From the sequence record NC_028925.1: a stretch of DNA of 64,000 bases; one strand, given 5' to 3'. Source of the stretch: Escherichia phage vB_EcoM_VR25. Positions 3,169 to 49,691 of this stretch are shown here, in pieces; within the stretch, counting starts at the first letter, position 1; every line of letters starts with the position of its first letter. A program made the translations under genes and the position numbers. The notes below the pieces were generated by a model, which did no database searches, had not been told where the DNA came from, and worked only from the letters and a program-made list of their open reading frames with translations.

Positions 3169-3171
3169 GAA

Positions 3172-3615: not shown

Positions 3616-3635
3616 TTTATTATCCCGTTTGTTTA

Positions 3636-3686: not shown

Positions 3687-3688
3687 CA

Positions 3689-3985: not shown

Positions 3986-4004
3986 TTTATTCTCCAGTGT
4001 TTTA

Positions 4005-4056
4005 TTTGGTAACTCAGTATGGGATAATTATACACTATCCCACCTGGAAGTAAAAC
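4005..4056 (-). promoter_or_regulatory. early promoter (-35 TTTTAC, 17 bp, -10 TATAAT) with -10 inside GGGATA/TATCCC inverted repeat, plus conserved leader
   Basis: minus-strand reading of 4021-4055; 23-mer TGGGATAATTATACACTATCCCA is an exact repeat of 6394-6416. Confidence 0.5.
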
Positions 4057-4067
4057 ACTTTTCTCAA

Positions 4068-4493: not shown

Positions 4494-4524
4494 TTTATTT
4501 CTCCAAAGTTTTGTTTGATTCAGT

Positions 4525-4573
4525 GTGTAACTCAGTATGGAATCATTATGCACCCGGTCAATTCGGATGTACA
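4525..4573 (-). promoter_or_regulatory. early promoter (-35 TGTACA, 17 bp, -10 CATAAT) plus leader
   Basis: minus-strand reading; shares the 24-mer repeat. Confidence 0.45.
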
Positions 4574-4611
4574 CTACTTTTTGAAGAAAATTTCAAATTT
4601 ATTCGGGGTAT

Positions 4612-4640
4612 AAAAAAGCCCCAACCTTTCGGAAGGGGCT
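4612..4640 (-). terminator. rho-independent terminator closing the tRNA cluster transcript
   Basis: hairpin AGCCCC-N12-GGGGCT followed on the minus strand by a U6 run (plus-strand A6 at 4612-4617). Confidence 0.5.
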
Positions 4641-4689
4641 AAGCCTTGCGGCAACCTTGTCGGGGTTCCACCTGCTAGGCAAGTGTTTG

Positions 4690-4783
4690 TACGAAACGCC
4701 GGGATTTGAACCCGGTTATCAAGTAGTTGACGCTACTCAATATTTTTAAAAGGCCATATCTCGACCATATCCGAACGTTCCGT
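4690..4783 (-). ncRNA. tRNA-like element (acceptor-like ends with G-U pair, T-arm CCGGG-TTCAAAT-CCCGG); type unresolved
   Basis: T-arm and acceptor complementarity read by eye; D and anticodon arms could not be folded canonically, so this may be a type II tRNA or a stable RNA like T4 species 1/2. Confidence 0.25.
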
Positions 4784-4957
4784 CAAAAACGCCACTCGGC
4801 TTACGGCAAAGATATTTCCTCGAATCGTTAATTAGGTGCGCCGTTTCAGCTGTGAAATAAGGGACTTTAAGAGGTCAACTCATGTACGCCTTAAAATCGG
4901 GTCTTATTCAGGGAACTTCAGTCCGACGACTTACCGGTAGCGACCCGGCTTCTTGTT

Positions 4958-5033
4958 TGGTCGAGACAGTAGGGATCGAACCTACGACCTAGGACTTAGA
5001 AGGTCCTTGCTCTTCCTTCTGAGCTATGCCTCG
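4958..5033 (-). tRNA. tRNA-Arg (anticodon UCU)
   Basis: full cloverleaf folded by hand: acceptor CGAGGCA/TGTCTCG, D arm GCTC-AGAAGGAA-GAGC, anticodon arm AGGAC-CTTCTAA-GTCCT, T arm GTAGG-TTCGATC-CCTAC, encoded CCA. Confidence 0.7.
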
Positions 5034-5034
5034 T

Positions 5035-5167
5035 GTTTGTTCATAGCGGGGTGGACTCGAACCACCAATATTAAGTCACTCATGCTCCAAGCATGCTAGG
5101 GCACTTACCCCGGACGGAATCGAACCGCATCTACAATACCTATCGCCATGATAATTTAAAATAAGTT
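5035..5167 (-). ncRNA. tRNA-like / stable-RNA candidate region carrying two T-arm-like motifs
   Basis: plus-strand spellings GGTGGACTCGAACCACC (5050-5066) and GGAATCGAACC (5117-5127) are reverse complements of GGTTCGANTCC T-loops; no canonical cloverleaf found by hand. Confidence 0.25.
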
Positions 5168-5241
5168 TGGTGGCCCTGGGTGGAATCGAACCACCATCCA
5201 GCGATTATGAGTCGCTCGCTTGACCGTCCAGCTACAGGGCC
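5168..5241 (-). tRNA. tRNA with anticodon CAU (Met, or Ile if C34 is modified)
   Basis: cloverleaf folded by hand: acceptor GGCCCTG/CAGGGCC, anticodon arm AGCGA-CTCATAA-TCGCT, T arm GGTGG-TTCGATT-CCACC, encoded CCA. Confidence 0.7.
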
Positions 5242-5301
5242 TTAATTCTATTATGAAAGGCTCTTTGAGGGAAGAACCTTTGGTAATAGAGGGTACTTAT
5301 T

Positions 5302-5327
5302 AATAATAACGCGTTTTTATTAAAGCA
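5302..5327 (-). promoter_or_regulatory. middle-promoter-like element (MotA-box-like TGCTTTA, about 11 bp, TATTAT) upstream of the tRNA cluster
   Basis: minus-strand reading; overlaps the stop codon of 5320..5799. Confidence 0.3.
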
Positions 5328-5799
5328 TATCAAGTGCTTTAACGTTCGGAATTTGGATTTCTTCTTCGATGATGTATAATTTTACCCACGAAACTACGCG
5401 CATAAAATCGCTATCATATTCCACTGGCTCGCCCAGTAATTCCTGGAGAGAATATAATAATTCAAATTCCTGGTCATTGTCACCTTCAACCAGGTTTTCC
5501 AGATTTTCAATACAAAGTGTTTTGTTAATGAATTCAGAAGTTAATTGACCAGATTTTACACCAGATTCAATGTGTGCGATAACCAAGTCTTTAACTACGT
5601 CCCATTCCGAATTGCCACATTTATCTGGATAGTTACAATGAGAACCTTGAAAAAGTTCCAGGATATATTTGTACTGCTGGATTTCTTGTTCTTCTACACC
5701 AAATATTGTCTGGGTTTTATAGTTGTCACCATCATTTTCCCAGGTTTCAATTTCAATCACATAACCTTTAGGGATGGTCTGACCAAATTTAATATTCAT
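5320..5799 (-). CDS. hypothetical protein (acidic)
   Basis: ORF track 5320..5805 trimmed to ATG at 5797-5799 with GAAGG RBS. Confidence 0.5.
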   Translation of the reverse strand: MNIKFGQTIPKGYVIEIETWENDGDNYKTQTIFGVEEQEIQQYKYILELFQGSHCNYPDKCGNSEWDVVKDLVIAHIESGVKSGQLTSEFINKTLCIENLENLVEGDNDQEFELLYSLQELLGEPVEYDSDFMRVVSWVKLYIIEEEIQIPNVKALDML

Positions 5800-5801
5800 A
5801 A

Positions 5802-6185
5802 TCAACCTTCATCAACAATAGTATGGGTATTGGCATTAACAATCTGCCACCAGTCAAAACGGTTAGAACCATAACATGGTTTATTCTCGTTTTCTTTAAT
5901 GATATCACGCAGTTCATCTTCAGTCGCAGCTTTTGCGATTAGGTCTGCATAACCGCCACGGGGATAATAGCTATCGCCAGCAAACAGTAAAAAGTTTGTT
6001 TTGATATTCTTGAATTCTTCAAGAGTAATAACCGTTCCAGATGGTTGTTGAACAATATCTACGTAACTATACCCCAATTGCTGGGCTTTATCTACCGCTT
6101 CAAGCAGGGTGTCATGTGCCCACCCAATTTGACATTCTGGTTTGTCAGATGGGTTTGCCTGATAATCCGCATACACTTTATACAT
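5802..6185 (-). CDS. hypothetical protein
   Basis: ORF track 5802..6233 trimmed to ATG at 6183-6185 with AAGGTGAG RBS. Confidence 0.45.
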   Translation of the reverse strand: MYKVYADYQANPSDKPECQIGWAHDTLLEAVDKAQQLGYSYVDIVQQPSGTVITLEEFKNIKTNFLLFAGDSYYPRGGYADLIAKAATEDELRDIIKENENKPCYGSNRFDWWQIVNANTHTIVDEG

Positions 6186-6186
6186 T

Positions 6187-6372
6187 TTACTCACCTTTAG
6201 ACATTTTATCCATAACGAAAGAGATTGAACCAATTAAGAATGCAACTACTAAAGAGATTATATTCTCAGAAGTTGAAAGCATATTCAACATAAAGCCAGC
6301 AAACATGCTAAAACCAAAAGCGGTAACAGCAACAAGGGCAGTAACATTTCTAATTAATTCACAACGTTTCAT
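6187..6372 (-). CDS. small hydrophobic (membrane) protein
   Basis: ORF track 61 aa; GAGGAG RBS; hydrophobic core VTALVAVTAFGFSMFAGFML. Confidence 0.4.
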   Translation of the reverse strand: MKRCELIRNVTALVAVTAFGFSMFAGFMLNMLSTSENIISLVVAFLIGSISFVMDKMSKGE

Positions 6373-6384
6373 TTTATTCTCCTC

Positions 6385-6430
6385 ATTAGTTGATGGGATA
6401 ATTATACACTATCCCATATCTAAAAGTACA
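6385..6430 (-). promoter_or_regulatory. early promoter with -10 TATAAT inside GGGATA/TATCCC inverted repeat
   Basis: minus-strand reading; exact 23-mer shared with 4020-4042. Confidence 0.45.
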
Positions 6431-6431
6431 C

Positions 6432-6665
6432 TTATTTTTTACGGAAAATTGATTTATACTTGTTAGCCCATTTCTCGATAACTTCTGCCGGACCCTGGAT
6501 AACAAAATAGTCCCCAAACTCTTCACCGCCGAGCTGACCGTAATTATCTAAGGCGTCGCGGAGAGTTCCATAAGGCATTTCGCCCATTTTATCTTTCTTG
6601 CCGGTGTAAATGAATTGCACTTTAACATCAGCAGTTTCATTAATAAATTCTTGATAAGTTTTCAT
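6432..6665 (-). CDS. internal-protein-like small protein with N-terminal capsid-targeting sequence (MKTYQEFINE)
   Basis: ORF track 77 aa; N-terminus nearly matches the T4 IPI/IPII/IPIII targeting peptide MKTYQEFIAE as I recall it; sits at the position of the T4 ipI locus (between tRNAs and 57B). Confidence 0.6.
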   Translation of the reverse strand: MKTYQEFINETADVKVQFIYTGKKDKMGEMPYGTLRDALDNYGQLGGEEFGDYFVIQGPAEVIEKWANKYKSIFRKK

Positions 6666-6674
6666 GTTGTCTCC

Positions 6675-6719
6675 AGTAGTTGATGGGATAATTATACTGC
6701 ATTTATCCCATCGTGTACA
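6675..6719 (-). promoter_or_regulatory. early promoter (-35 TGTACA, 17 bp, -10 TATAAT) with -10 flanked by GGGATA/TATCCC
   Basis: minus-strand reading of 6683-6719. Confidence 0.45.
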
Positions 6720-7019
6720 TTACATTTTTGAACCGCGAATTACACCATAAGCGGCGAAGTCGTCAGTGATATTTTTAGGGGTGTTCTTACCAGTTTCAAT
6801 ATATGCAATGCTGGATTTCTGACTAAATGAGGTAATTTTATTATAGTTAGAGTCAAGGAAGGTATAACCATTTTTACGCAGCTGGTCAAAGTCTTCAGCG
6901 TCGCCTTTACCTTTGAAGTCAACCCATTTGTATGTGTTTTTCTTCTGAAGGCCCAGAGGCCAAGTTTTTGCTTCTGCCAGGTAATTATTTTCTACCAAAA
7001 ATTCGTGGAACGTTTGCAT
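6720..7019 (-). CDS. internal-protein-like small protein with targeting-like N-terminus (MQTFHEFLVE)
   Basis: ORF track 99 aa. Confidence 0.55.
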   Translation of the reverse strand: MQTFHEFLVENNYLAEAKTWPLGLQKKNTYKWVDFKGKGDAEDFDQLRKNGYTFLDSNYNKITSFSQKSSIAYIETGKNTPKNITDDFAAYGVIRGSKM

Positions 7020-7027
7020 TTGAAATC

Positions 7028-7300
7028 CTATTTTAGATAAATTGCGTATTTTTTATAACCAGCTGTCTCATGGCGGAGACCCTTGTCATTGGCAAAACGC
7101 TCAATGTTGTTGATTTGGTTCTGGTCAAGTTCAGAGATGTCAAACGCGAAAAAGTTGCGTTTGTTACCAATTGTTATATGGTCAGTCAAGTCAATGCTGT
7201 ACAGGTGATTGATATTGTCAATCATAGCTTTGACTGCTTTACTAATTTTTACTTCTTCATTCAGTTGGGACTCGTTGAAAAGTTCATTAAAAGTTTTCAT
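7028..7300 (-). CDS. internal-protein-like small protein with targeting-like N-terminus (MKTFNELFNE)
   Basis: ORF track 90 aa; late-promoter octamer TATAAATA 13 nt upstream of the ATG. Confidence 0.55.
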   Translation of the reverse strand: MKTFNELFNESQLNEEVKISKAVKAMIDNINHLYSIDLTDHITIGNKRNFFAFDISELDQNQINNIERFANDKGLRHETAGYKKYAIYLK

Positions 7301-7308
7301 AAGAAACC

Positions 7309-7641
7309 TTATTTATACAGTTTAGCTAGTTCTTTACGTCCGCGAGCAGACATAATGAATTGTTCATCACCAATTTTGAAATAAGCCATACCGCCGTCAA
7401 CAGCGATGCCAATTTCTTTAGTACCTTCTTTGCCTTTCCACTTGCCACCAGATTTCAGGACAGCTTCAACTGCAGCTTTGGAATATTTGGACGTTTGAAA
7501 ACGTTCATTACCAATCTGAAAGAAAACACCATCTGCATTTTTGGATAAACCAAATTTCAGAGAGCCTTCACTATCATCAATTGATTTGGTTTCATTGATG
7601 GCGGATTCGGCTAAAAACTCGTTATAAGTCTTGATGTTCAT
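7309..7641 (-). CDS. internal-protein-like small protein with targeting-like N-terminus (MNIKTYNEFLAE)
   Basis: ORF track 7309..7674 trimmed to ATG at 7639-7641 with GGAG RBS. Confidence 0.5.
   Translation of the reverse strand: MNIKTYNEFLAESAINETKSIDDSEGSLKFGLSKNADGVFFQIGNERFQTSKYSKAAVEAVLKSGGKWKGKEGTKEIGIAVDGGMAYFKIGDEQFIMSARGRKELAKLYK
7310..7317 (-). promoter_or_regulatory. T4-type late promoter core TATAAATA
   Basis: exact octamer on the minus strand upstream of the gene starting at 7300. Confidence 0.4.
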
Positions 7642-7659
7642 TTTAACTCCGTTTGTTCG

Positions 7660-7701
7660 TGGGTGTAGGAACATAATACTGTGCCTACACTCATTTGTAC
7701 A

Positions 7702-7702
<1 letters not shown>
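7660..7702 (-). promoter_or_regulatory. early promoter (-35 TGTACA, -10 TATTAT) with -10 inside TGTAGG/CCTACA inverted repeat
   Basis: minus-strand reading of 7664-7702. Confidence 0.4.
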
Positions 7703-8386
<684 letters not shown>

Positions 8387-8387
<1 letters not shown>

Positions 8388-9064
8388 TATATTACCTTAT
8401 TAATTTTATCAAAAAGTTCTTCGAGTGTGCCATCGTTTTTAATAACAATGTCACTAGCTAGTGGTGGAAGTCCAGCTTCCGTAATGTGTGTATCAGTAGA
8501 ATGATTTGCTTCATCGCGTTCTACAAAGATTATTGTAGCACCCATCGCCCGAAGCGAATCAAGTTCGTTCTTTTGGCGAACATCTGGGACAACGTAATAT
8601 TTATATCCAGAATAGAGGTTGTCAAGATAATCGCATGCAAAAGTTTTAATCCAAAACATGCTGTCGAACTCTGTACAAACGATGTCAGTTCCAAGGGTCT
8701 GCATGAAACGTCTAACTGTCCAGGGCTCAACATTATTTAGTGTGTGAAATTCAATGATTTTACGAACCATATCTGGATTCGGAAGGTCAAGATTATATTG
8801 CTGTTTCAACCATTCAAGAGCGTCAACCAGAAGAATATGAGCTTCAGTGTTGTTCATTATCAAGGTTTTTTCACGGTCATAACCTTGTCCATCAAAATTT
8901 TCCAGGGTCAAATTGTGTGGCAGGTCTTGACGAACCCACGCTTTATAAAGCGCTTCTTTAATTGGACCAGCAAGTTGCCACTTTGTTCCGTTTTGACTAA
9001 TAACATAATCAGCAGTCGTATCTTTACCACTGCGTTTTTTACCCACAATCGCAATTAATTTCAT
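8387..9064 (-). CDS. 1: deoxynucleoside monophosphate kinase (gene 1)
   Basis: ORF track 225 aa; P-loop GKKRSGKDT near the N-terminus; conserved position. Confidence 0.8.
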
Positions 9065-9660
9065 ACGTTTCTCATAGATGGATGCATTGACTTAGACCTG
9101 ATTTCCTGTTGCATTGCTGCATTACTATCAATCTGTGGTCTACCTTCTATTATTATACCATCAATTTCTACAGCAAAAGACTTAAAGTTAAAAGTTGCTG
9201 TTGCATTGATAGCAGGGTCAGAATCTTCTTTATATGAATACTGAATCTCTGACAGGTCGGACGGCCATGCTCCATAGTAATGGATTGACATGACAATTTT
9301 GTCCTTGTTATTATCTAAGATATGAAGCGTGACCGCTTCGGGACGACCCTTTGGATGCCATGCTTTTGATTCGTGTGTGATGTAATTGTTAAGCGAGAGC
9401 ATCCATTTATAGATATCAAGCCATGCCCTTAGGTCTTTGTCACACAGAAAGTTAACAATCAGCGGGTCGAATTCTATTGTACTACCAGGAAGACTGGAGC
9501 GATTTATACCTTGCGTTCCGCCGGGGACATCTGTAACAGGGATGTGAACCCCTGGGAGGGTAACGTCTTGAACGTTGAGTTTAAAAGTCTGTGTGAGGTT
9601 TGAATCGCTTACCTCTAATATAAAGTTAGTCGTGTTAGTTTGATTATATAAACCTGACAT
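9061..9660 (-). CDS. 3: gp3 tail completion / sheath stabiliser
   Basis: ORF track 199 aa; position between genes 1 and 2 as in T4; sequence identity not independently recalled. Confidence 0.6.
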   Translation of the reverse strand: MSGLYNQTNTTNFILEVSDSNLTQTFKLNVQDVTLPGVHIPVTDVPGGTQGINRSSLPGSTIEFDPLIVNFLCDKDLRAWLDIYKWMLSLNNYITHESKAWHPKGRPEAVTLHILDNNKDKIVMSIHYYGAWPSDLSEIQYSYKEDSDPAINATATFNFKSFAVEIDGIIIEGRPQIDSNAAMQQEIRSKSMHPSMRNV

Positions 9661-39036: not shown

Positions 39037-40596
39037 ATGAAAAAGAATGCATTAGTTCAAAAATGGTCCGCTCTGCTGGAAAACGAAGCTCTTCCTGAAA
39101 TCGTTGGTGCTTCTAAACAAGCTATCATCGCTAAAATCTTTGAAAACCAGGAACAAGATATCCTGACCGCTCCTGAATACCGTGACGAAAAAATCTCCGA
39201 AGCATTTGGTTCTTTCCTGACTGAAGCTGAAATCGGTGGTGACCATGGTTATGATGCTACCAATATCGCGGCTGGCCAGACCTCTGGTGCAGTAACTCAG
39301 ATTGGGCCGGCAGTTATGGGTATGGTTCGTCGTGCTATCCCGCATCTGATTGCGTTTGATATTTGTGGCGTGCAGCCTCTGAACAACCCGACTGGCCAGG
39401 TATTTGCCCTGCGTGCAGTTTACGGTAAAGACCCTGTAGCTGCTGGTGCTAAAGAAGCTTTCCACCCGATGTATGCTCCGAACGCTATGTTCTCTGGTCA
39501 GGGCGCTGCTGAAGCTTTCGAAGCTCTGGCTGCAAGCAAAGTTCTTACCGTTGGTAAAATTTATTCTCACTTCTTCGAAGCAACCGGTTCCGCACACTAC
39601 CAGGCTGTTGAAGCTGTAACCGTTGATGCTGGCGCTACTGATGCTGCTAAACTTGACGCTGAAGTTACCAAACTGCTCGAAGCTGGTAAACTGGCAGAAA
39701 TTGCTGAAGGTATGGCTACCTCTATCGCCGAACTGCAGGAAGGTTTCAACGGTTCTCAGGATAACCCGTGGAACGAAATGGGCTTCCGCATCGATAAACA
39801 AGTTATCGAAGCTAAATCCCGTCAGCTGAAAGCAAGCTACTCTATCGAACTGGCACAGGACCTGCGCGCTGTTCACGGTATGGACGCTGATGCTGAATTG
39901 AGTGGTATTCTGGCTACTGAAATTATGCTGGAAATCAACCGCGAAGTTATCGATTGGATTAACTACTCCGCACAGGTTGGTAAATCTGGTATGACCAACA
40001 CCGTTGGCGCTAAAGCTGGTGTGTTTGACTTCCAGGACCCAATTGATATCCGTGGCGCTCGTTGGGCTGGTGAAAGCTTCAAAGCTTTACTGTTCCAGAT
40101 TGATAAAGAAGCCGCTGAAATCGCTCGTCAGACCGGTCGTGGTGCAGGTAACTTCATCATCGCTTCCCGTAACGTAGTTAACGTACTGGCTGCAGTTGAT
40201 ACCTCCGTATCTTATGCTGCTCAGGGTCTGGGTAAAGGTTTCAACGTTGACACCACTAAAGCTGTGTTCGCTGGTGTTCTGGGTGGCAAATACCGTGTCT
40301 ATATCGACCAGTATGCTCGCGCAGATTACTTCACCATCGGTTACAAAGGCGCTAACGAAATGGATGCTGGTATCTACTACGCACCATATGTTGCACTGAC
40401 CCCGCTGCGTGGCTCTGACCCGAAAAACTTCCAGCCGGTTATGGGCTTCAAAACCCGTTACGGTATCGGTATTAACCCGTTCGCTGACCCGGCAGCTCAG
40501 GCTCCGACCAAGCGTATTCAAAACGGCATGCCGGACATTGTTAACAGCCTCGGCTTGAACGGTTACTTTAGACGTGTATATGTAAAAGGTATCTAA
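39037..40596 (+). CDS. 23: gp23 major capsid protein
   Basis: ORF track 519 aa; codon usage typical of a highly expressed gene; conserved position. Confidence 0.95.
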   Translation: MKKNALVQKWSALLENEALPEIVGASKQAIIAKIFENQEQDILTAPEYRDEKISEAFGSFLTEAEIGGDHGYDATNIAAGQTSGAVTQIGPAVMGMVRRAIPHLIAFDICGVQPLNNPTGQVFALRAVYGKDPVAAGAKEAFHPMYAPNAMFSGQGAAEAFEALAASKVLTVGKIYSHFFEATGSAHYQAVEAVTVDAGATDAAKLDAEVTKLLEAGKLAEIAEGMATSIAELQEGFNGSQDNPWNEMGFRIDKQVIEAKSRQLKASYSIELAQDLRAVHGMDADAELSGILATEIMLEINREVIDWINYSAQVGKSGMTNTVGAKAGVFDFQDPIDIRGARWAGESFKALLFQIDKEAAEIARQTGRGAGNFIIASRNVVNVLAAVDTSVSYAAQGLGKGFNVDTTKAVFAGVLGGKYRVYIDQYARADYFTIGYKGANEMDAGIYYAPYVALTPLRGSDPKNFQPVMGFKTRYGIGINPFADPAAQAPTKRIQNGMPDIVNSLGLNGYFRRVYVKGI

Positions 40597-41027: not shown

Positions 41028-42308
41028 ATGGCAAAGATTAACGAACTGCTGCGCGAGTCAACTACCACTACCAGCAACTCCTTGGGCCGCCCGAATCTTG
41101 TTGCTTTGACCCGTGCTACAACCAAATTGATTTACCGCGATATTATCGCTGAACAACGTACTAACCAGCCAGTTGCGGCTCTGTACGGTGTTAAATATCT
41201 TACTCCTGATAATGAATTCAGTTTCCAGACTGGTGCTACTTATGGTGGTGAAGTCGGTTCTAAAGACCGTACAACTATTCCAGAATTAGCTACAGCTACT
41301 CAGCCTGTTGCTAAAGGCGAATATGTAAAATATCAAAATATCGTTTACAAAGCTCTGGTGGATAATCCATTTGCAACAACCACAGAAACAGTATTATCTG
41401 ATGTTCTACAGGAAGGTCTTATTGCATCGACTATTCGTTTAGTTCCTGATGCAGCGCATACCGAGAAATTTGAAGCCGGTGATGTTGAAATTAGTAACGC
41501 CGTGTTCCAGGTTAATAAATGGAATGCTCCTGTTAAATCCCGTAAATTGAAAACTGCACTGACTGTTGAACTTGCTCAGGATATGGAAGCAAACGGTTTT
41601 AATGCTCCTGCTTTCCTGGAAGACCTGCTTGCAACTACCATGGCAGACGAAATTAACAAAGATGTTCTGCAGTCTCTGATTACCGTTTCCAAGCGTTATA
41701 AAGTCACTGGCGTTTCTGATAAAGGTTTCATCGATTTGACATATGATTCAGCTCCAGAAGGCGCACGTAAACTATACGAACTGGTTTGCGAAATGAACTC
41801 TGAAATTCAGAAAACTACATCTTACTCTGGTACATTCGTTGTTGCCTCAAGTCGTGTGGCCGCGATGCTCGCCGGTTCCGGTTGGTTGAAACATAAACCT
41901 GAAGATGAACAATGGCTCCCGGAAACCGCGTACGGCTATTTGATTAATGGTCTTCCTGTATTCTGTGATGTTAACAGTCCATTGGATTATGTAACCGTTG
42001 GCGTTAAAGAAAATTACGGTGGAAACGAAGTCGTAGGCTCAATCTTCTATGCTCCTTATACCGAAGGCCTGGACTTAGATGATGAAGAACATGTAGGTGC
42101 GTTTAAGGTCATTGTGGACCCAGACAGCTTGCAGCCATCTATCTCCTTGATGGTTCGATATGCACTTTCAGCTAACCCTTACACCGTTGCTAAAGACGAC
42201 AAAGAAGCTCGTATTATCGATGCAACTAATATGGATTTAATGGCCGGCCAGAGCAACATGTCTTATCTGCTCGGTGTTAAACTTCCACCAATCATTTATG
42301 AGGCGTAA
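41028..42308 (+). CDS. 24: gp24 head vertex protein
   Basis: ORF track 426 aa; N-terminus MAKINELLRESTTT...GRPNLVALTRATTKLIY matches T4 gp24. Confidence 0.9.
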   Translation: MAKINELLRESTTTTSNSLGRPNLVALTRATTKLIYRDIIAEQRTNQPVAALYGVKYLTPDNEFSFQTGATYGGEVGSKDRTTIPELATATQPVAKGEYVKYQNIVYKALVDNPFATTTETVLSDVLQEGLIASTIRLVPDAAHTEKFEAGDVEISNAVFQVNKWNAPVKSRKLKTALTVELAQDMEANGFNAPAFLEDLLATTMADEINKDVLQSLITVSKRYKVTGVSDKGFIDLTYDSAPEGARKLYELVCEMNSEIQKTTSYSGTFVVASSRVAAMLAGSGWLKHKPEDEQWLPETAYGYLINGLPVFCDVNSPLDYVTVGVKENYGGNEVVGSIFYAPYTEGLDLDDEEHVGAFKVIVDPDSLQPSISLMVRYALSANPYTVAKDDKEARIIDATNMDLMAGQSNMSYLLGVKLPPIIYEA

Positions 42309-43592
42309 ATGCAAAAGATTAACGCACTAATTCACGAATCAACATTAACGGCGGCCAACCAGGTCGCCCGTCCTAATTTGCTTTCTTATACTCGGGCTAC
42401 GAATAAACGAATTTTTAAAGCTCTTGTGGCCGAACAGAAAACTACTCAGCCAGTCGCAGCGCTGTATGGCGTTCGTGTTCTGAACCCAGATGATAAAATG
42501 ACTTATCTTGGTGGAGCAACATTTGCAGGCCAGATTGGTATGTTCGAGCGTAAGAATATTCCAGAATTTACGAACAAAGACGAAGCTTATGCAGTCGGCA
42601 ACATGTTCCAGTTTGAAAGCATTGTATTCAAAGCTTTGGAAGCTTCTCCTTTTGCCGGGACCCTCGAAACTGATTTGGGTGAAGTTATTTCTGAAGCCAT
42701 TGCGGCTGGCCATATAAGAATGATGTCAGATGCGGCTTTCACTGATAAATTTGAACAAGGACATCCTGAAATTGCTGAAGCCGGTTTCCGTATTGATAAA
42801 TGGCAGACTGAAGTTAAATCCAGAAAACTGAAAACCTCTTTAACCGTTGAGCTTGCGCAAGACCTGGAAGCAAATGGTTTCGACGCAACAGATTTTATTG
42901 ATAATATCCTTGGTATTCAAATGGCAGAGGAAATTAATAAGGACGTACTGCAATCTTTAATTACCGTGAGTTCGCGTTTTAAAGTCCAGGGTGTTTCCGA
43001 AAAAGGTGTACTTAATCTTACTGATGCCGCTTATGATAATGCTCAGGACCGTGCTCGAACTCTGTATTATTATATGTGCGAAATGAATTCCGCAGTTCAA
43101 CGTCAGACTTCGTTCGCTGGTACATATGCAGTCGCTTCTTCCCGTTGTGCAGCTATTTTAGCAGCTTCTGGCTGGGTTGAGAAAAAGGAAGACCAAGATG
43201 AATTGGCCTATGGTGTTCTGAAGAACGGTTTGCCACTTTATGCAGATATGAATAGCCCGTGCGATTATGTTATTGTTGGTGTAAATGCTGATATGGGTGA
43301 AGGTCAGACAGTCGCATCTTTGTATTATGCGCCTTATACGGAAGGTCTTAGTGAAGTTGATGATGAGGGTGACACCTCGGTTGGGGAATTCAAGGTTATC
43401 GTTGACCCCGAAAGTTTACAGCCTACAGTTGCACTGTTAGCTCGTTATGCACTGACTGCAAACCCTTACACCGTTGCTAAAGACGATAAAGAAGCTCGCA
43501 TTATTGATGGAGCTGATATGGATAAGATGGCTAACCAAAGCCAATTGAGTTCTTATCTTGGTGTTAAACTTCCACCACTGGAAAAAGAATAA
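42309..43592 (+). CDS. gp24 paralog (second head vertex protein copy, tandem duplicate)
   Basis: ORF track 427 aa; collinear similarity to the preceding gene (MQKINALIHEST..., ...PYTVAKDDKEARIID...GVKLPP). Confidence 0.85.
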   Translation: MQKINALIHESTLTAANQVARPNLLSYTRATNKRIFKALVAEQKTTQPVAALYGVRVLNPDDKMTYLGGATFAGQIGMFERKNIPEFTNKDEAYAVGNMFQFESIVFKALEASPFAGTLETDLGEVISEAIAAGHIRMMSDAAFTDKFEQGHPEIAEAGFRIDKWQTEVKSRKLKTSLTVELAQDLEANGFDATDFIDNILGIQMAEEINKDVLQSLITVSSRFKVQGVSEKGVLNLTDAAYDNAQDRARTLYYYMCEMNSAVQRQTSFAGTYAVASSRCAAILAASGWVEKKEDQDELAYGVLKNGLPLYADMNSPCDYVIVGVNADMGEGQTVASLYYAPYTEGLSEVDDEGDTSVGEFKVIVDPESLQPTVALLARYALTANPYTVAKDDKEARIIDGADMDKMANQSQLSSYLGVKLPPLEKE

Positions 43593-45210: not shown

Positions 45211-45347
45211 GTTGAGTTAGTGAAGCTATCTTAACATGGAATTTTTAACTTGTAAACAGGAGTTTTATGCCAGATATTCTTGAACGTAAAGATTTACTTT
45301 ACAACCGCCACTACTTTAATAAATATTAAATTAATAACGGAGGATTT

Positions 45348-46928
45348 ATGACACAAACTACAGGTGAAAAAGAAGGCGTATTTTACGGTTATTCTCTTTA
45401 TGATTTGAATAAAGAAAAACTAATAACTTTTGATGAATTACTTACAGGTGTTCAAGGAGAGCCCGGAGAAAATGGCGATATTGGACCAAAAGGCCCTATT
45501 GGTTTAACAGGTCCTCAAGGACCGAAAGGTGATACCGGGTCAAAAGGTATTAAAGGTGATACCGGCCCTCAAGGTATTCAAGGGCCCGCTGGCCCACAAG
45601 GTCCTCAGGGAGAAAAGGGAGTCCAAGGTTTAGCTGGAGTCCAAGGCATTCAAGGACCAGTCGGCCACCAAGGAGTGAAAGGTGATACCGGCCCTCAAGG
45701 TATTCAAGGACCGAAAGGTGATACAGGTCCTCAAGGCCCACAAGGTGACAAAGGCGAAATGGGTCCGGTGGGTCCGGCTGGTCTAACATGGAAAGGAACA
45801 TGGGACGCTGATGTAGAGTATTCTATAAATGAGGCTGTCGGATATGGTGGTTCTTTATATTTCGCCAAAACAAAAGTTCCTAATGGCGAAATACCAACAC
45901 CGACTTCTAACTATTGGGGTGTTTTGGCTACCGAGGGTCCACAAGGTCCACAAGGTCAACAAGGTCTTAAAGGTGATACCGGTCCTCAAGGTATTCAAGG
46001 ACCTGTAGGGCCTGTAGGGCAGCAGGGTATTCAGGGACCAAGAGGACTTCAAGGGTCAGAAGGTGAAATAGGACCGCGGGGTATTCAAGGGCTAAAAGGC
46101 GAAACTGGGCCCGCTGGTCCACAGGGTATTCAAGGGCTAAAAGGCGAGGTGGGTGCTCAGGGTCCTTCTGGTTCTCCTGGACTTACAGGACCAGAAGGAC
46201 CTCGTGGGTTAACAGGCGAAGCTGGAGCTCAAGGACCTCGTGGTGCTATAGGTCCTATCGGTTTAACAGGTCCTATCGGTTTAACGGGTCCTCAAGGTAT
46301 TCAAGGTCCTAAAGGTGATACAGGTCCTCAAGGCTTACAAGGTCCTCAAGGCTTACGAGGTATTCAAGGAGCTCCTGGAGTAAAAGGAGAAGCGGGTGCA
46401 CAAGGTCCTATCGGTTTAACAGGTCCGAAAGGTGATACCGGTCCTCAAGGTATTCAAGGACCGAAAGGTGATACAGGAGCACAAGGTCCTATTGGTTTAA
46501 CTGGACCTAAAGGTGATACAGGCCCGAGCCCTTATACTGTTTATAATTATTCTAATGTTGCAACTGGTTATGCTGAAATGGTTATGCCTGGTGTGTCATC
46601 AAACACAGTATTTAGACTTCGTTCAGTTGGAACTAATATAGAATATAGTGTTCTAAGTAAAGGCGGAGCTAATAGATATGTAGATTGGCACTTTTCAATT
46701 CCAAGTGTTTCCGGCAATACAGTAAGTACTAATAGCGGAACTAATACATTAACTCCTACAGGTAATTTTACTATTGTGGCGACCGCTTATAATGGACTAA
46801 GGGGATTTACAATAACATTATGCGAGTGGGGTTCAAGAGCTATTGTTGATATCACTGTTTATCATCATGGGCGTTCGGGAGACACAACCAAAGCTGTGGC
46901 TATTCGTATGACTACTACAAAATACTAA
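45348..46928 (+). CDS. collagen-like (Gly-X-Y repeat) protein with C-terminal globular domain
   Basis: ORF track 526 aa; two long Gly-X-Y runs separated by a roughly 50-aa non-collagenous insert; GGAGG RBS; no counterpart in T4 at this position. Confidence 0.8.
   Translation: MTQTTGEKEGVFYGYSLYDLNKEKLITFDELLTGVQGEPGENGDIGPKGPIGLTGPQGPKGDTGSKGIKGDTGPQGIQGPAGPQGPQGEKGVQGLAGVQGIQGPVGHQGVKGDTGPQGIQGPKGDTGPQGPQGDKGEMGPVGPAGLTWKGTWDADVEYSINEAVGYGGSLYFAKTKVPNGEIPTPTSNYWGVLATEGPQGPQGQQGLKGDTGPQGIQGPVGPVGQQGIQGPRGLQGSEGEIGPRGIQGLKGETGPAGPQGIQGLKGEVGAQGPSGSPGLTGPEGPRGLTGEAGAQGPRGAIGPIGLTGPIGLTGPQGIQGPKGDTGPQGLQGPQGLRGIQGAPGVKGEAGAQGPIGLTGPKGDTGPQGIQGPKGDTGAQGPIGLTGPKGDTGPSPYTVYNYSNVATGYAEMVMPGVSSNTVFRLRSVGTNIEYSVLSKGGANRYVDWHFSIPSVSGNTVSTNSGTNTLTPTGNFTIVATAYNGLRGFTITLCEWGSRAIVDITVYHHGRSGDTTKAVAIRMTTTKY
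45553..46477 (+). repeat. near-identical direct repeats inside the collagen-like gene
   Basis: 32-mer AAAGGTGATACCGGCCCTCAAGGTATTCAAGG exact at 45553 and 45678, one mismatch at 45969, again within 46425-46477; tandem CCTATCGGTTTAACAGGT at 46252/46267. Confidence 0.7.
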
Positions 46929-46937
46929 GGAGCTTTA

Positions 46938-47801
46938 ATGGAACCGGTTAAAGCTGTGTTAGAGCCTGATGTAATAGATGTGGAATATGGTAATACATAC
47001 TCGGCTACTGTAACTCTGTCTCCTATAGAAAATATTCCAGATGGTTCCGTGATAAGATATGATTGGGTTGTTAATAACAAGTTCGTTGGTACGGGTGAAG
47101 CTACTCGTACCACCCAACCATCTCAGACCGGAAATTATGTATTATCATGTAGAGTATTCATTACTCCGCCTAATGAAAATACTGTAATGATAACAACTAA
47201 TAAATCATATGGGTATGTATATAAAAATTCCGATACAAGTCCAGTAGATGCAGAAATATTATATGATAACAAGATATACCAAATAGGAAGCAAAGTTAGA
47301 TTATTAGCCGTTGCCAATAACCCAGATACCAACTTTGTTAAAGGTATTATATGGAAGGATGCTGATGGTAAGATAATAGGTATAGGTCGGGAATATATCC
47401 ATACAATGCAATCAGAGTATGATATAGTTCGAGCTAAAGTTACAATGGATTCGCCTATAAGAGATGAATTTAGTAAGAACTTTACTATACATTTGTACGC
47501 TATAAATGTTCAAGAAGGAACATGTATAAGATATATTCATCCTTTAGACCACAGGGATGCAGGATTTATCTGGTGTGGTTGGTGGGTTATGGATGAAATC
47601 CAACGAGCGATAAAACTTGGGCTGGATTGGAAAAATCCAAAAGAGCTAGATTTAAATTACAAGTGTGATTTAGAGACATTAGCGTTATTGCTCAAGACAT
47701 ATCCTGAAGCCGAAGTTCAAGAATCAAGACACGGATATATAATAACCAGACTACAAATTGAGACTGGCGAAATATATAAAAAACCATATGAAGTAAAATA
47801 A
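46938..47801 (+). CDS. Hoc-like capsid decoration protein (second copy)
   Basis: ORF track 287 aa; C-terminal ...HPLDHRDAGFIWCGWWVMDEIQRAIK...YPEAEVQESRHGYII... parallels the capsid-binding C-terminus of the hoc product downstream. Confidence 0.7.
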   Translation: MEPVKAVLEPDVIDVEYGNTYSATVTLSPIENIPDGSVIRYDWVVNNKFVGTGEATRTTQPSQTGNYVLSCRVFITPPNENTVMITTNKSYGYVYKNSDTSPVDAEILYDNKIYQIGSKVRLLAVANNPDTNFVKGIIWKDADGKIIGIGREYIHTMQSEYDIVRAKVTMDSPIRDEFSKNFTIHLYAINVQEGTCIRYIHPLDHRDAGFIWCGWWVMDEIQRAIKLGLDWKNPKELDLNYKCDLETLALLLKTYPEAEVQESRHGYIITRLQIETGEIYKKPYEVK

Positions 47802-47804
47802 AAG

Positions 47805-47822
47805 GGCCTTGCGGCCCTTTAT
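47805..47822. terminator. terminator hairpin GGGCC-UUGC-GGCCC between convergent genes
   Basis: read directly. Confidence 0.5.
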
Positions 47823-47824
47823 CA

Positions 47825-48928
47825 TTAATAGACGTAATCGTATATAATACCAGCTTCCAATGCCGAACGGTGGACGATACGACCGTTACGAGATTCCTGT
47901 ACATCAACTTCCGGGTAATCACTAAGCATTTTGGCTAATACCGCCAGATGACAATAATATGGTGTATCCTCTTTAGTGGCTTTTTTCCAATCTGTACTTT
48001 CAGATGTTAATTTCTGAATAGCGTCCATAACCCACCAGCCACACCAAATATACGCAGTATTACGGACAGGAAGTGGATGTACATAAATTAAAGGGCATTC
48101 TTCTGGAATAACAGGCTCTGCTTCTTCCACAGTAACGGACTTAGTACCTGATTTAACTGAATTTGTAAAGCCTGTTTGTGATGCGGTAACTTCACAAGTA
48201 TATGTCTTCAAGCCTTCAGTGGATTCCGTTATTGCTCTTGTTGCTTCTGTTGAGTTGTCGTCCCATTTATATGCAAGAGTCGCACCAGGGATAGCAGGGG
48301 ACACAGAAGCTGTCAAATTGAATGGAACATCAACCGTTGCAGTAGACGGGCCTGAAATCTCAACAGTGAACTCAGGAAATGTATTGTTTTCGACCGTAAC
48401 AACTACTGCCTCAGGATTAATAACTTGATTGTCATAATCTGCCGCAGAAACGGTAATTTGGCAAGTTAAAGAAACTGGTCCTGCGTCAGTAGCAGCACGA
48501 GTAATATCTTTAGTAATTTCACCAGTAGACCACAAATATGCTATTGTAGCTCCACCGGGTTCACCTGTTACATTAGCCGAAGCGTTATATTCCTGACCAA
48601 CTTTAACAGTAGGAGTGGAAGTTGTTAATGTTGCTGTTGCAGCCATAGTCTTATTATTAACCGTAATGGTTGTTTGAGCCTCTGCCGTTTCAGGCTCTCC
48701 TTCTTCCGGCGTTGTGGTGGCAACAACTTTAATTACTTTTGAACCTGCTGGGCCAGCTGCAATATAATCCATAGTAGCAATAACAGAATCTTGTGGAACA
48801 TCATCAACGGTCCATACAAAAGATTCGGTACCAGCGACAGCGGCTCCAGCCCCAGTAGCAGTAAAATTAGTTGTTGCACCTATAACCGCTGTAGGTGTTA
48901 AAGGGGCAATTGATACAGTATAAGCCAT
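47825..48928 (-). CDS. hoc: Hoc, highly immunogenic outer capsid protein
   Basis: ORF track 367 aa (T4 about 376); C-terminus ...CPLIYVHP...AYIWCGWWVMD...YPEVDVQESRNGRIVH... matches T4 Hoc; minus orientation as in T4. Confidence 0.8.
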   Translation of the reverse strand: MAYTVSIAPLTPTAVIGATTNFTATGAGAAVAGTESFVWTVDDVPQDSVIATMDYIAAGPAGSKVIKVVATTTPEEGEPETAEAQTTITVNNKTMAATATLTTSTPTVKVGQEYNASANVTGEPGGATIAYLWSTGEITKDITRAATDAGPVSLTCQITVSAADYDNQVINPEAVVVTVENNTFPEFTVEISGPSTATVDVPFNLTASVSPAIPGATLAYKWDDNSTEATRAITESTEGLKTYTCEVTASQTGFTNSVKSGTKSVTVEEAEPVIPEECPLIYVHPLPVRNTAYIWCGWWVMDAIQKLTSESTDWKKATKEDTPYYCHLAVLAKMLSDYPEVDVQESRNGRIVHRSALEAGIIYDYVY

Positions 48929-48939: not shown

Positions 48940-48958
48940 GGGCCGAAGCCCTTTTGTT
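48940..48958. terminator. GC hairpin GGGC-N4-GCCC (UUCG loop on the minus strand)
   Basis: read directly between inh end and hoc start; may be a terminator or a stabilising 5' hairpin. Confidence 0.35.
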
Positions 48959-49637
48959 AATTTAAACGAATAAAAGATGAGTTACGTGTTTCACGAATAA
49001 GAATGGAACCGTCACGATTGATATAGTAAATCAAACTAAACAATGTTTGGTGTGCGCTTGCATGAGTAAAAGAAGTAGGGCGTTCTTTCCAGTCCGGGGT
49101 CTCTTTAATCCACTGGTAAATCCACCAAGGGAGAGTACAATATCCAGGAGCTTTGCCCAGCATAAGCAGATTGGGGCTAAAATTTTTAGGCAGTGTAAAT
49201 TTAGGAGTTTCAGCTTCGATGATTTGAGCGACAGCTTCTTCAAAGTCTTCGGAAACAAACGGCACTTCAATTTCAACGAGTTTAACTTCTGATTCAGGAA
49301 CAACTTCCTGGGTAACTTCGACTACTTCAACGGGTGCTTCTGGAGCATCAAACAAAAGAACAGCTTCAGGTTTAGCTGATTCTTCACCTTCAAACTTACC
49401 ACCTGATAATTCATCATCGGCATTAATAAGGTCGGTGATGCTTAAGCCTTCGTTATCGTCCGGCATAGGCATGTCAGCAAATGCTTGCAGCCCGGCTTCC
49501 AGGTCAATCAACATATTATCGAAAGTTTTTGTTTTCTTAACATCAACACCAAGCGATGATGCATATTCAGCTAATTTTTCTTTGGCTTCTTTTTTCTCGA
49601 GGACACGAATTTCCTCAATATAGTTCTTATCAATCAT
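48957..49637 (-). CDS. inh: Inh, inhibitor of prohead protease
   Basis: ORF track 226 aa (T4 Inh 226); position next to hoc. Confidence 0.7.
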   Translation of the reverse strand: MIDKNYIEEIRVLEKKEAKEKLAEYASSLGVDVKKTKTFDNMLIDLEAGLQAFADMPMPDDNEGLSITDLINADDELSGGKFEGEESAKPEAVLLFDAPEAPVEVVEVTQEVVPESEVKLVEIEVPFVSEDFEEAVAQIIEAETPKFTLPKNFSPNLLMLGKAPGYCTLPWWIYQWIKETPDWKERPTSFTHASAHQTLFSLIYYINRDGSILIRETRNSSFIRLN

Positions 49638-49663: not shown

Positions 49664-49691
49664 TAGATATATTTATTACCTTGGAATCATC

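What the first reader, a model, noticed from the sequence alone, without database searches (positions are those of the whole stretch)
46938..48928. Two convergent Hoc-like decoration genes sharing the capsid-binding C-terminal domain
The plus-strand ORF 46938..47801 and the minus-strand hoc at 47825..48928 both end with a conserved domain (...Y/CIxxHPL...IWCGWWVMD.IQ...YPE.(E/D)VQESR.G.I...), which in T4 Hoc is the capsid-binding module. Their N-terminal Ig-like regions differ. Two Hoc variants with different display domains could give alternative or mixed capsid surface properties.
Basis: partly seen in the sequence, partly recalled or inferred. Interest (0 to 1): 0.6.

Follow-up and report, generated by a model that had tools for sequence, protein, structure and literature searches.

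The report
Two Hoc capsid-decoration genes, already annotated
This T4-like E. coli phage does carry two different genes for the Hoc fibre that decorates the virus head, but the same gene pair is already annotated in its close relatives and the two-Hoc arrangement has been described in other phages, so it is real but not new.

Summary
ORF 46938..47801(+) (Hoc2, 287 aa) and ORF 47825..48928(-) (Hoc1, 367 aa) both end in the roughly 90-aa Hoc capsid-binding domain (BLASTP E=6e-28; T4 Hoc E=3e-26 and 1e-78). Hoc1 is the syntenic T4 hoc orthologue. Hoc2 has two Ig-like domains plus an anchor that keeps 14 of 16 T4 gp23-contact residues, and the gp23 docking loop is 18/19 identical to T4. Hoc2 is under purifying selection (dN/dS 0.07).

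The two genes are not a recent duplication. The anchors are 48% identical, and Hoc2's anchor groups with those of Serratia, Erwinia and Kosakonia phages. Hoc2 lies in a roughly 2.5-kb accessory cassette, a collagen-like fibre gene followed by hoc2. The cassette sits in the 24.3-hoc spacer, is absent from sister phage VR20, and is present in three genera. In Kosakonia phage 305, Hoc2 is the only Hoc.

The most likely mechanism is inferred, not shown: both proteins compete for the single site at each gp23 hexamer centre, giving mixed capsid surfaces.

The VR7 (2010), VR26 and VR5 records already annotate both genes as Hoc-like, and Fokine et al. 2023 describe two-Hoc phages. This is already known, and interest is modest.

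The parts
45318..45325 (+). AATAAATA box, a 7/8 match to the T4 late-promoter element TATAAATA, 30 nt upstream of the collagen-like gene
   Evidence: The spacing matches the exact TATAAATA boxes that lie 26-37 nt upstream of the window's structural genes. The same AATAAATA variant precedes the late gene inh on the minus strand (49677..49670). Promoter function is inferred, not shown.
45348..46928 (+). Collagen-like fibre gene (526 aa), first gene of the inserted cassette
   Evidence: Pfam Collagen PF01391, E=2e-50. GXY-coding tandem repeats. The N-terminal 35 aa are 94-97% conserved in VR7, VR5, VR26 and KIT01, while the C-terminal domain is swapped between relatives.
46929..46937 (+). 9-nt junction carrying the GGAG ribosome-binding site for Hoc2 (TAA GGA GCT TTA ATG)
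   Evidence: The two ORFs are in the same frame here and in VR26, but not in KIT01, JS10, VR7 or Kosakonia phage 305, so a read-through fusion is not supported.
46938..47801 (+). Hoc2, the second Hoc-like decoration gene (287 aa, pI 5.3)
   Evidence: dN/dS = 0.07 against the KIT01 orthologue.
46938..47222 (+). Hoc2 Ig-like domain 1 (aa 1-95)
   Evidence: AlphaFold model, all-beta, pLDDT above 90. Foldseek matches to tandem Ig proteins and RB49 Hoc.
47244..47504 (+). Hoc2 Ig-like domain 2 (aa 103-189)
47520..47786 (+). Hoc2 capsid-binding (anchor) domain (aa 195-283)
   Evidence: It aligns to T4 Hoc 291-376. It keeps Y293, H295, H299, R300, W306, W309, W310, D313, Q354, E355, S356, R357, G359 and Y360. 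The changes are Y304F and N358H. The residue list is from PMC10385173 section 3.4.
47801..47820 (.). GC-rich hairpin flanked by A and T runs, a bidirectional intrinsic-terminator-like element between the convergent genes
   Evidence: Folding gives dG -13.5 and -13.9 kcal/mol on the two strands. An equivalent hairpin is present in VR26, VR7, KIT01, JS10 and Kosakonia phage 305.
47825..48928 (-). Hoc1, the canonical hoc orthologue (367 aa, pI 4.3)
   Evidence: It is colinear with T4 Hoc residues 1-375, E=1e-78. It is syntenic with inh and uvsW as in T4.
47828..48097 (-). Hoc1 capsid-binding domain (aa 278-367)
   Evidence: It is 67% identical to the T4-type anchor and 48% identical to the Hoc2 anchor.
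48957..49637 (-). inh (prohead protease inhibitor), upstream of hoc1 on the same strand; context only
   Evidence: PHROG 1051, E=1e-88.
40006..40062 (+). gp23 loop equivalent to T4 Gly326-Arg344, the docking site for the Hoc anchor
   Evidence: It is 18/19 identical to T4, including Asp336 and Arg344. It is near-identical in Kosakonia phage 305 and Serratia phage X20, which carry only Hoc2-type anchors.

Best explanation
The phage encodes two bona fide Hoc-family head-decoration proteins of separate ancestry. Hoc1 is the resident T4 hoc orthologue, with three Ig-like domains, a T4-type anchor and a very acidic charge. Hoc2 has two different Ig-like domains, an anchor of a different Hoc lineage and a less acidic charge. 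Hoc2 arrived as the second gene of a ~2.5-kb accessory cassette, a collagen-like fibre gene followed by hoc2. The cassette is inserted in opposite orientation into the 24.3-hoc spacer and is probably transcribed from a late-type promoter. Both anchors keep the residues that contact gp23, and the gp23 docking loop is unchanged. After capsid expansion both proteins should therefore dock at the centre of gp23 hexamers. Each hexamer has a single site, so the two proteins would compete. Capsids would then carry a mixture of two display fibres, with a ratio set by expression and affinity. This would broaden or alter the weak adhesion and surface-charge properties of the head. What is shown: homology, domain architecture, conserved contact residues and docking loop, purifying selection, separate anchor lineages, and presence/absence of the cassette among relatives. 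What is inferred: expression timing, capsid binding of Hoc2, competition, and any adhesive function.
For: Both proteins match T4 Hoc and PHROG 1149. The Hoc2 model shows two Ig-like domains plus an alpha/beta anchor, with pLDDT 85, and Foldseek returns RB49 Hoc as top hit. Hoc2 retains 14 of 16 gp23-contact or structural residues. The N358H change also occurs in phages whose only Hoc is of this type. The gp23 loop 326-344 is 18/19 identical to T4, and it is the same in phages that carry only Hoc2-type anchors. dN/dS is 0.07 at dS 0.47 against KIT01. Anchor identities are Hoc1-Hoc2 48%, Hoc1-T4 67%, and Hoc2-Serratia X20 or 92A1 61-62%. In 99.5% of 200 neighbour-joining bootstrap replicates, the Hoc2-type anchors separate from Hoc1 and the T4-type anchors. 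VR20, which is 95% identical in the head region, lacks the cassette and has 24.3 and hoc adjacent, with the insertion boundaries visible. The cassette is present in Gaprivervirus, Dhakavirus (JS10, KIT01), Kanagawavirus (Kosakonia phage 305) and a metagenomic T4-like contig. Kosakonia phage 305 has one Hoc anchor in its whole genome, and it is Hoc2-type. A GGAG ribosome-binding site and an AATAAATA box lie at late-gene spacing. The pI is 4.3 for Hoc1 and 5.3 for Hoc2.
Against: There is no direct evidence that Hoc2 is in the virion or on the capsid, and no proteomics paper for VR7, VR26 or JS10 could be retrieved. There is no exact TATAAATA upstream of the cassette. KIT01 and JS10 lack even the 7/8 box at that position. 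T4 Hoc is non-essential, so the loss of canonical hoc in Kosakonia phage 305 does not prove that Hoc2 substitutes for it. Y304F and N358H could alter affinity. The anchor phylogeny rests on ~85 columns and neighbour joining only.
Confidence: 0.65

Rival explanations
1. Hoc2 is mainly an adaptor. The collagen-like protein encoded immediately upstream attaches to the head through Hoc2, or co-assembles with it, and gives the capsid long collagen-like fibres. On this reading the two-gene cassette is one functional unit.
For: The collagen-like gene and hoc2 are adjacent and co-oriented with 9-29 nt gaps in every T4-like carrier found: the window, VR26, VR7/VR5, KIT01, JS10, Kosakonia phage 305 and metagenome contig L036. 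This holds despite 30-40% identity between Hoc2 alleles and swapped collagen C-terminal domains. The pair persists in Kosakonia phage 305 without canonical hoc. In the unrelated siphovirus AugustePiccard, a homologous collagen gene sits in the head module next to a 'head decoration' gene.
Against: The conserved collagen N-terminal segment also occurs in Vequintavirinae and Certrevirus fibre proteins. Their neighbouring genes have no Hoc-like domain. The JS10 collagen protein lacks that N-terminus. The collagen C-terminal domain and the Hoc2 display domains vary independently: KIT01 has the same Hoc2 but a different collagen C-terminus. The AugustePiccard neighbour is not homologous to Hoc2. 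Shared descent from a single insertion could explain the linkage.
Confidence: 0.12
2. Hoc2 is expressed but contributes little to the capsid. It may be outcompeted by Hoc1, made at a different time or condition, or have a non-capsid role, so virions are effectively decorated by Hoc1 only.
For: No exact late promoter is present. There is one binding site per hexamer, and Hoc1 carries the cognate T4-type anchor. Two contact residues are substituted in Hoc2. The cassette is dispensable within the genus, since VR20 and others lack it.
Against: Strong purifying selection acts on both the display and anchor parts (omega 0.06-0.07). The anchor contact residues are retained. The same anchor type is the sole Hoc in Serratia X20, Serratia 92A1 and Kosakonia phage 305, which have an identical gp23 loop.
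Confidence: 0.12
3. The two genes are a recent inverted duplication of hoc within this genome, followed by divergence of the display domains.
For: The genes are adjacent and convergent, and they share the C-terminal domain.
Against: The anchors are only 48% identical, whereas each is 61-67% identical to anchors of other phage genera. Bootstrap analysis separates them in 99.5% of replicates. Hoc1 is 97-100% identical between the window and VR7, while Hoc2 is only 30-63% identical. VR20 lacks Hoc2 altogether.
Confidence: 0.03
4. Hoc2 binds a different capsid site from Hoc1, for example capsomers near vertices built from one of the two gp24 paralogues, so the two proteins do not compete.
For: The phage has two gp24 paralogues that are 56.5% identical. 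Hoc2 carries N358H and Y304F at contact positions.
Against: The contact residues are otherwise conserved. The N358H change is found in phages where this anchor type is the only Hoc and the gp23 loop is the same. In T4, neither Hoc nor Soc binds gp24 pentamers (established knowledge of T4).
Confidence: 0.05

Closest known systems
vB_EcoM_VR26 gp243/hoc and vB_EcoM_VR7 ORF197w/hoc (Gaprivervirus records NC_028957, NC_014792)
   Same: These are orthologous loci with the same gene order, 24.3, collagen-like, Hoc2, hoc, inh. VR26 Hoc2 is 98-99% identical. Both genes are annotated 'Hoc-like head decoration'. The 2010 VR7 record notes that ORF197w is 'similar to T4 Hoc'.
   Different: The window phage is not identical to any deposited genome (96.5-98% nucleotide identity). 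VR7 and VR5 carry a different Hoc2 allele, 30-37% identical in the Ig domains, and a different collagen C-terminal domain.
Two-Hoc phages described by Fokine et al. 2023 (Serratia phage Muldoon; Enterobacter phage PG7), PMC10385173
   Same: One genome encodes a long or canonical Hoc plus a shorter protein that reuses the Hoc capsid-binding domain to display other domains. The authors propose this functionalises the capsid surface.
   Different: Both Muldoon anchors appear to be T4-type: P0033 (1174 aa) and P0046 (314 aa) are 67-76% identical to Hoc1 and 48-49% to Hoc2. Their assignment to Muldoon rests on matching lengths only. Here the second anchor is from another lineage, and it travels with a collagen-like gene on the opposite strand. 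PG7's second protein has an N-terminal anchor and a lipase-like domain.
T4 Hoc (PDB 5vf3, 8t1x; RB49 Hoc 3shs)
   Same: The architecture is Ig-like domains followed by a C-terminal anchor. The gp23-contact residues and the gp23 docking loop are conserved.
   Different: Hoc2 has two rather than three Ig-like domains, and their sequences are unrelated at the BLAST level to most Hocs. It is less acidic, with pI 5.3 against about 4.3-5.
Sole Hoc proteins of Winklervirus and related phages (Serratia X20, CHI14, 92A1; Erwinia phages) and of Kosakonia phage 305
   Same: They have the anchor subtype CIRYIHPLDHR...NVEVQESR(H/N)GY, 61-62% identical to the Hoc2 anchor. In these phages it is the only Hoc and sits with an identical gp23 loop.
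   Different: In the Serratia and Erwinia phages the gene occupies the canonical minus-strand hoc position with no collagen partner. Only Kosakonia phage 305 has the cassette arrangement.

Membership tests
Hoc (T4 highly immunogenic outer capsid protein) family | C-terminal ~90-aa capsid-binding domain homologous to T4 Hoc 281-376 | tested here: met
   Hoc2 aligns to 5vf3_Z through residue 376 with E=3e-26, and Hoc1 with E=1e-78. PHROG 1149 and 21694 match both.
Hoc (T4 highly immunogenic outer capsid protein) family | Conserved gp23-contact and loop residues (Tyr293, His295, Arg300, Trp309, Trp310, Asp313, Glu355-Ser-Arg-Asn-Gly359) | tested here: met
   Hoc2 keeps all of these except N358H, and also has Y304F. 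Hoc1 keeps all of these, with H299V and Y360R at less conserved positions. The residues were read from the alignments against the list in PMC10385173.
Hoc (T4 highly immunogenic outer capsid protein) family | N-terminal string of Ig-like domains | tested here: met
   For Hoc2, the AlphaFold model shows two beta-sandwich domains, and Foldseek's top hit is the RB49 Hoc Ig domains, followed by PECAM-1 and Fc receptors. Hoc1 is colinear with the three Ig-like domains of T4 Hoc.
Hoc (T4 highly immunogenic outer capsid protein) family | Cognate docking site on the major capsid protein (gp23 Gly326-Arg344 with Asp336 and Arg344) | tested here: met
   The window gp23 loop is 18/19 identical to T4.
Hoc (T4 highly immunogenic outer capsid protein) family | Canonical genomic position: minus strand between 24.3 and inh, in the late head region | tested here: met
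   This is met for Hoc1. Hoc2 is at the same locus but on the opposite strand, inside an inserted cassette, so it is a paralogue and not the positional orthologue.
Hoc (T4 highly immunogenic outer capsid protein) family | One copy bound at the centre of each expanded gp23 hexamer; present in the virion | not testable with these tools
   This needs virion proteomics, in vitro binding or cryo-EM. No such data were found for this phage group.
Multi-Hoc phages (capsid-binding domain reused by a second display protein; Fokine et al. 2023) | Two or more genes in one genome carrying the Hoc anchor with different display parts | tested here: met
   In the census, 1142 phage records carry an anchor at 1184 places, so at most about 42 records (about 3.7%) carry more than one. 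Metagenome contig L036 carries three.
Bacterial and phage collagen-like fibre proteins (PF01391), for the upstream cassette gene | Long Gly-X-Y repeat tracts flanked by non-collagen N- and C-terminal domains | tested here: met
   Pfam Collagen E=2e-50 with 6 stretches. PHROG 5073 E=4e-154. Trimer formation and the attachment site in the virion were not tested.

The most novel reading that the evidence does not exclude
The collagen-like gene and hoc2 form a horizontally mobile 'capsid-surface cassette'. In it, Hoc2 does more than add a second Ig fibre: it cooperates with, or anchors, a trimeric collagen-like fibre on the head. The hoc locus would then be a hotspot where T4-like phages collect and swap anchor-tagged surface modules. 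Up to three Hoc-anchor genes occur in one locus, and alleles are exchanged between genera.
Probability: 0.12. Interest if true: 0.65.

Novelty: already known. Interest (0 to 1): 0.3.

Why it matters
Hoc is the platform used for T4 phage display and vaccine work, and it is the protein invoked for phage adherence to mucus. A natural phage that mounts two different Hoc fibres on one capsid would be a ready-made model for two questions. The first is how anchor competition sets surface composition. The second is how display domains are exchanged between phages. As a discovery its value is limited. The gene pair is already annotated in VR7, VR26, VR5 and JS10, and the concept is published. The incremental points from this work are these:
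- The two anchors have separate ancestry.
- The cassette shows presence/absence and allelic mosaicism within a genus.
- The link to a collagen-like gene is conserved across carriers.
- In Kosakonia phage 305 the second Hoc is the only one left.

Tried and rejected
1. Read-through fusion of the collagen-like ORF and Hoc2. They are in the same frame here, separated by TAA plus 9 nt. The frame relation is not conserved in KIT01, JS10, VR7 or Kosakonia phage 305, so I rejected this.

2. Recent local duplication of hoc. Anchor identities and bootstrapped neighbour joining reject it.

3. Hoc-like neighbours of the homologous collagen genes in Vequintavirinae phage A7_1. None were found.

4. Homology between Hoc2 and the AugustePiccard 'putative head outer capsid protein' next to its collagen gene. 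BLASTP found nothing. That protein belongs to PHROG 9703 and lacks the anchor-like part.

5. Exact T4 late promoter TATAAATA upstream of the cassette or of hoc/inh. None is present, only 7/8 AATAAATA boxes.

6. Pfam domains for Hoc1 and Hoc2. Only sub-threshold hits appeared.

7. Literature on virion proteomics or a discussion of the second Hoc in VR7, JS10, Gaprivervirus or Kosakonia phage 305. Nothing was found, and the VR7 genome paper is not held.

8. IMG/VR scan for further Hoc2 orthologues. Only VR26 and VR5 turned up.

9. PDB sequence search with the collagen C-terminal domain. No significant hit.

10. A first bootstrap script timed out. I reran it with a numpy implementation.
Full report
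**What is there**

The window comes from a T4-like coliphage of the VR7 group (genus Gaprivervirus). The head-gene region is 96.5% identical to VR7. The hoc region is 97-98% identical to VR26 and VR7 over the parts that align. Gene order around the finding is as follows:
- gp23, then two tandem gp24 paralogues
- rnlB, 24.2 and 24.3 on the minus strand
- a collagen-like gene, 45348..46928 (+)
- Hoc2, 46938..47801 (+)
- Hoc1, 47825..48928 (-), and inh, 48957..49637 (-)
- uvsW (+)

**Check of the observation**

BLASTP between the two products gives E=6e-28, and the conserved block is the last ~90 residues. Both match PHROG 1149 'Hoc-like head decoration' (E=1e-57 and 3e-116). Both match the solved T4 Hoc chain 5vf3_Z (E=3e-26 and 1e-78).

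Hoc1 is colinear with T4 Hoc from residue 1 to 375 and sits next to inh as in T4, so it is the hoc orthologue. Hoc2 matches T4 Hoc mainly through the anchor. An AlphaFold model built on an 11-sequence alignment has mean pLDDT 85. It shows two beta-sandwich domains (aa 1-95 and 103-189) and an alpha/beta C-terminal domain (195-283). Foldseek against the PDB returns the Ig-like domains of RB49 Hoc (3shs) first, followed by tandem-Ig proteins.

**Is Hoc2 competent to bind the capsid?**

Fokine et al. 2023 (PMC10385173, section 3.4) list the T4 Hoc residues that contact gp23 or hold the binding loop. I read these positions off the HMMER alignment.
- Retained in Hoc2: Y293, H295, H299, R300, W306, W309, W310, D313, Q354, E355, S356, R357, G359 and Y360.
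- Changed in Hoc2: Y304F and N358H.

His at position 358 also occurs in the Hoc proteins of Serratia phage X20 and Kosakonia phage 305. In those phages this protein is the only Hoc.

The gp23 segment that Hoc docks onto (T4 Gly326-Arg344) is 18/19 identical in the window phage, and Asp336 and Arg344 are kept. The segment is essentially the same in Kosakonia phage 305 and X20. Both anchor types therefore appear to recognise the same site, of which there is one per hexamer.

**Is Hoc2 a live gene?**

Against the KIT01 orthologue (90% nucleotide identity), dS is 0.47 and dN is 0.033, giving omega 0.07. The value is similar for the Ig part (0.06) and the anchor (0.07).

A GGAG ribosome-binding site lies 7 nt before the ATG. 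There is no exact T4 late-promoter box (TATAAATA) upstream of the cassette. An AATAAATA box does lie 30 nt before the collagen-like gene. That is the spacing of the exact boxes before the window's structural genes, and the same variant precedes the late gene inh. Late co-transcription of the collagen-like gene and hoc2 is therefore plausible but inferred.

A GC-rich hairpin flanked by A and T runs (47801..47820; about -13.5 kcal/mol on either strand) lies between the two stop codons. It looks like a bidirectional terminator, and relatives have an equivalent.

**Origin**

The two anchors are only 48% identical. Hoc1's anchor is 67% identical to the T4-type anchor. Hoc2's anchor is 61-62% identical to the anchors of Serratia phages X20 and 92A1 and of Kosakonia phage 305.

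I built a neighbour-joining analysis of 141 anchors taken from the exhaustive HMMER search. In 99.5% of 200 bootstrap replicates a split groups Hoc2 with its orthologues and the Serratia-type anchors, apart from Hoc1, the T4-type anchors and the JS10 and KIT01 Hoc1 proteins. This is not a recent in-genome duplication.

Sister phage VR20, 95% identical in the head region, has 24.3 and hoc adjacent with a 116-bp spacer. Alignment shows that the window carries a ~2.5-kb insertion in that spacer, from about 45275 to about 47800.

The collagen-like/hoc2 cassette occurs in these phages:
- Gaprivervirus: window, VR26, VR7, VR5, ESCO10
- Dhakavirus: KIT01, JS10
- Kanagawavirus: Kosakonia phage 305
- A 173-kb metagenomic T4-like contig

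The cassette is mosaic:
- VR7 and VR5 share 97-100% identical Hoc1 with the window. Their Hoc2 Ig domains are only 30-37% identical, and the anchor is 63% identical.
- The collagen protein keeps its first 35 residues at 97% identity but has an unrelated C-terminal domain in VR7 and VR5.
- KIT01 has a near-identical Hoc2 (96%) but a different collagen C-terminus.

Full-length Hoc2-type proteins are rare, forming three 50%-identity clusters among 1.8 billion representatives.

**How common are two Hocs?**

A tblastn census with the anchor finds 1142 phage records and 1184 places. At most about 42 records (about 3.7%, including GenBank/RefSeq duplicates) carry more than one anchor.

The metagenomic contig L036 carries three in one locus: Hoc2, a 960-aa Hoc and a 185-aa T4-type Hoc. 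Kosakonia phage 305 has only one, of the Hoc2 type. Where canonical hoc should be, there is a ~360-bp gap whose minus strand ends in LEAGTIYSYVY*, a 9/11 match to the Hoc1 C-terminus. This is consistent with deletion of canonical hoc. Because T4 Hoc is dispensable, the loss alone does not prove that Hoc2 substitutes for it.

**Most likely mechanism**

Both proteins are probably made late and bind after capsid expansion to the centre of gp23 hexamers. With one site per hexamer they must compete. That would produce capsids displaying a mixture of a three-Ig, very acidic fibre (pI 4.3, N-terminal net charge about -22) and a two-Ig, less acidic fibre (pI 5.3, about -6). This would change surface charge and the repertoire of weak adhesive contacts. 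The binding, the competition and any adhesion role are inferred.

**Rival explanations**

- Hoc2 acts as an adaptor or partner for the collagen-like fibre. The invariant gene pairing supports this. It is weakened because the conserved collagen N-terminus also occurs in Vequintavirinae and Certrevirus fibre proteins with no Hoc-like neighbour. The two genes' variable parts also change independently.
- Hoc2 is expressed but marginal on the capsid.
- Hoc2 uses a distinct binding site.
- Hoc2 arose by recent duplication. This is rejected.

**Comparison with what is known**

The 2010 VR7 GenBank record already notes ORF197w as 'similar to T4 Hoc'. RefSeq labels both genes 'Hoc-like head decoration' in VR7, VR26, VR5 and JS10. 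Fokine et al. 2023 explicitly discuss phages with two Hoc-like proteins (Muldoon and PG7) and the idea that the anchor is reused to functionalise the capsid.

I found no paper that discusses this particular cassette or gives virion proteomics for it. The finding as stated is therefore already known. The new points are the separate ancestry of the anchors, the cassette structure and its polymorphism, the constant pairing with a collagen-like gene, and the single-Hoc2 state of Kosakonia phage 305.

**Verdict**

Interest is 0.3. The most novel reading still open is that the collagen-like gene and hoc2 form one capsid-surface module. I put that at about 12% probability.

Noticed in passing
window 45348..46928 (+): A 526-aa collagen-like protein gene lies immediately upstream of Hoc2 with a 9-nt gap. 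It has Gly-X-Y tracts, an internal non-collagen segment (aa ~147-195) and a 131-aa C-terminal domain. Relatives keep the first 35 residues at 94-97% identity but swap the C-terminal domain. Homologues of that C-terminal domain occur in JS10, in Vequintavirinae (A7_1), and in Drexlerviridae (AugustePiccard, e4/1c). Its attachment site in the virion is unknown.
   Followed up: partly
window 41028..42308 and 42309..43592 (+): There are two tandem gp24 (capsid vertex protein) paralogues, 56.5% identical over their full length. VR7 annotates them as 24(1) and 24(2), and they are also present in JS10 and Kosakonia phage 305. How two vertex proteins share the 11 pentameric vertices is not obvious.
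   Followed up: partly
window 45268..45330 (+): A 20-codon mini-ORF (MPDILERKDLLYNRHYFNKY*) sits between the 24.3 promoter region and the collagen-like gene. Its ribosome-binding site and ATG are the ones used as the collagen gene start in KIT01 and JS10. They persist in VR20, which lacks the cassette, so they mark the left insertion boundary.
   Followed up: partly
L036 (ENA ERZ27245996 k123_278436) 3372..9462: A metagenomic T4-like contig carries three genes with a Hoc anchor in one locus. A collagen-like gene and Hoc2 (282 aa) lie on one strand. A 960-aa Hoc and a 185-aa T4-type Hoc lie on the other strand.
   Followed up: partly
L003 (Kosakonia phage 305, NC_070776.1) 5841..6202: Canonical hoc is missing. 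The ~360-bp gap ends, on the minus strand, in LEAGTIYSYVY*, which matches the last 11 residues of Hoc1 (9/11). This looks like a relic of a deleted hoc and leaves the Hoc2-type gene as the only Hoc in the genome.
   Followed up: partly
L001 (VR7, NC_014792.1) 4632..4760: The annotated collagen-like ORF of VR7 stops 127 nt before Hoc2, but another frame stays open up to the Hoc2 ribosome-binding site. This suggests a frameshift, either real or a sequencing error, near the 3' end of the VR7 gene.
   Followed up: no
L031 (Escherichia phage AugustePiccard, MZ501051.1) 2591..6421: In this Drexlerviridae siphovirus, a homologous collagen-repeat gene sits inside the head module. It lies between a 'putative head outer capsid protein' (PHROG 9703, not homologous to Hoc2 by BLASTP) and the major capsid protein gene. 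Other members of PHROG 9703 appear to start with a Hoc-anchor-like segment, since Hoc2 matches profile positions 1-67 with E=0.002.
   Followed up: partly
window 46938..47801 vs 45348..46928: Hoc2 has 35% G+C, against about 41% for the window and 46% for the adjacent collagen-like gene. This is consistent with a foreign or mosaic origin for the cassette parts.
   Followed up: no
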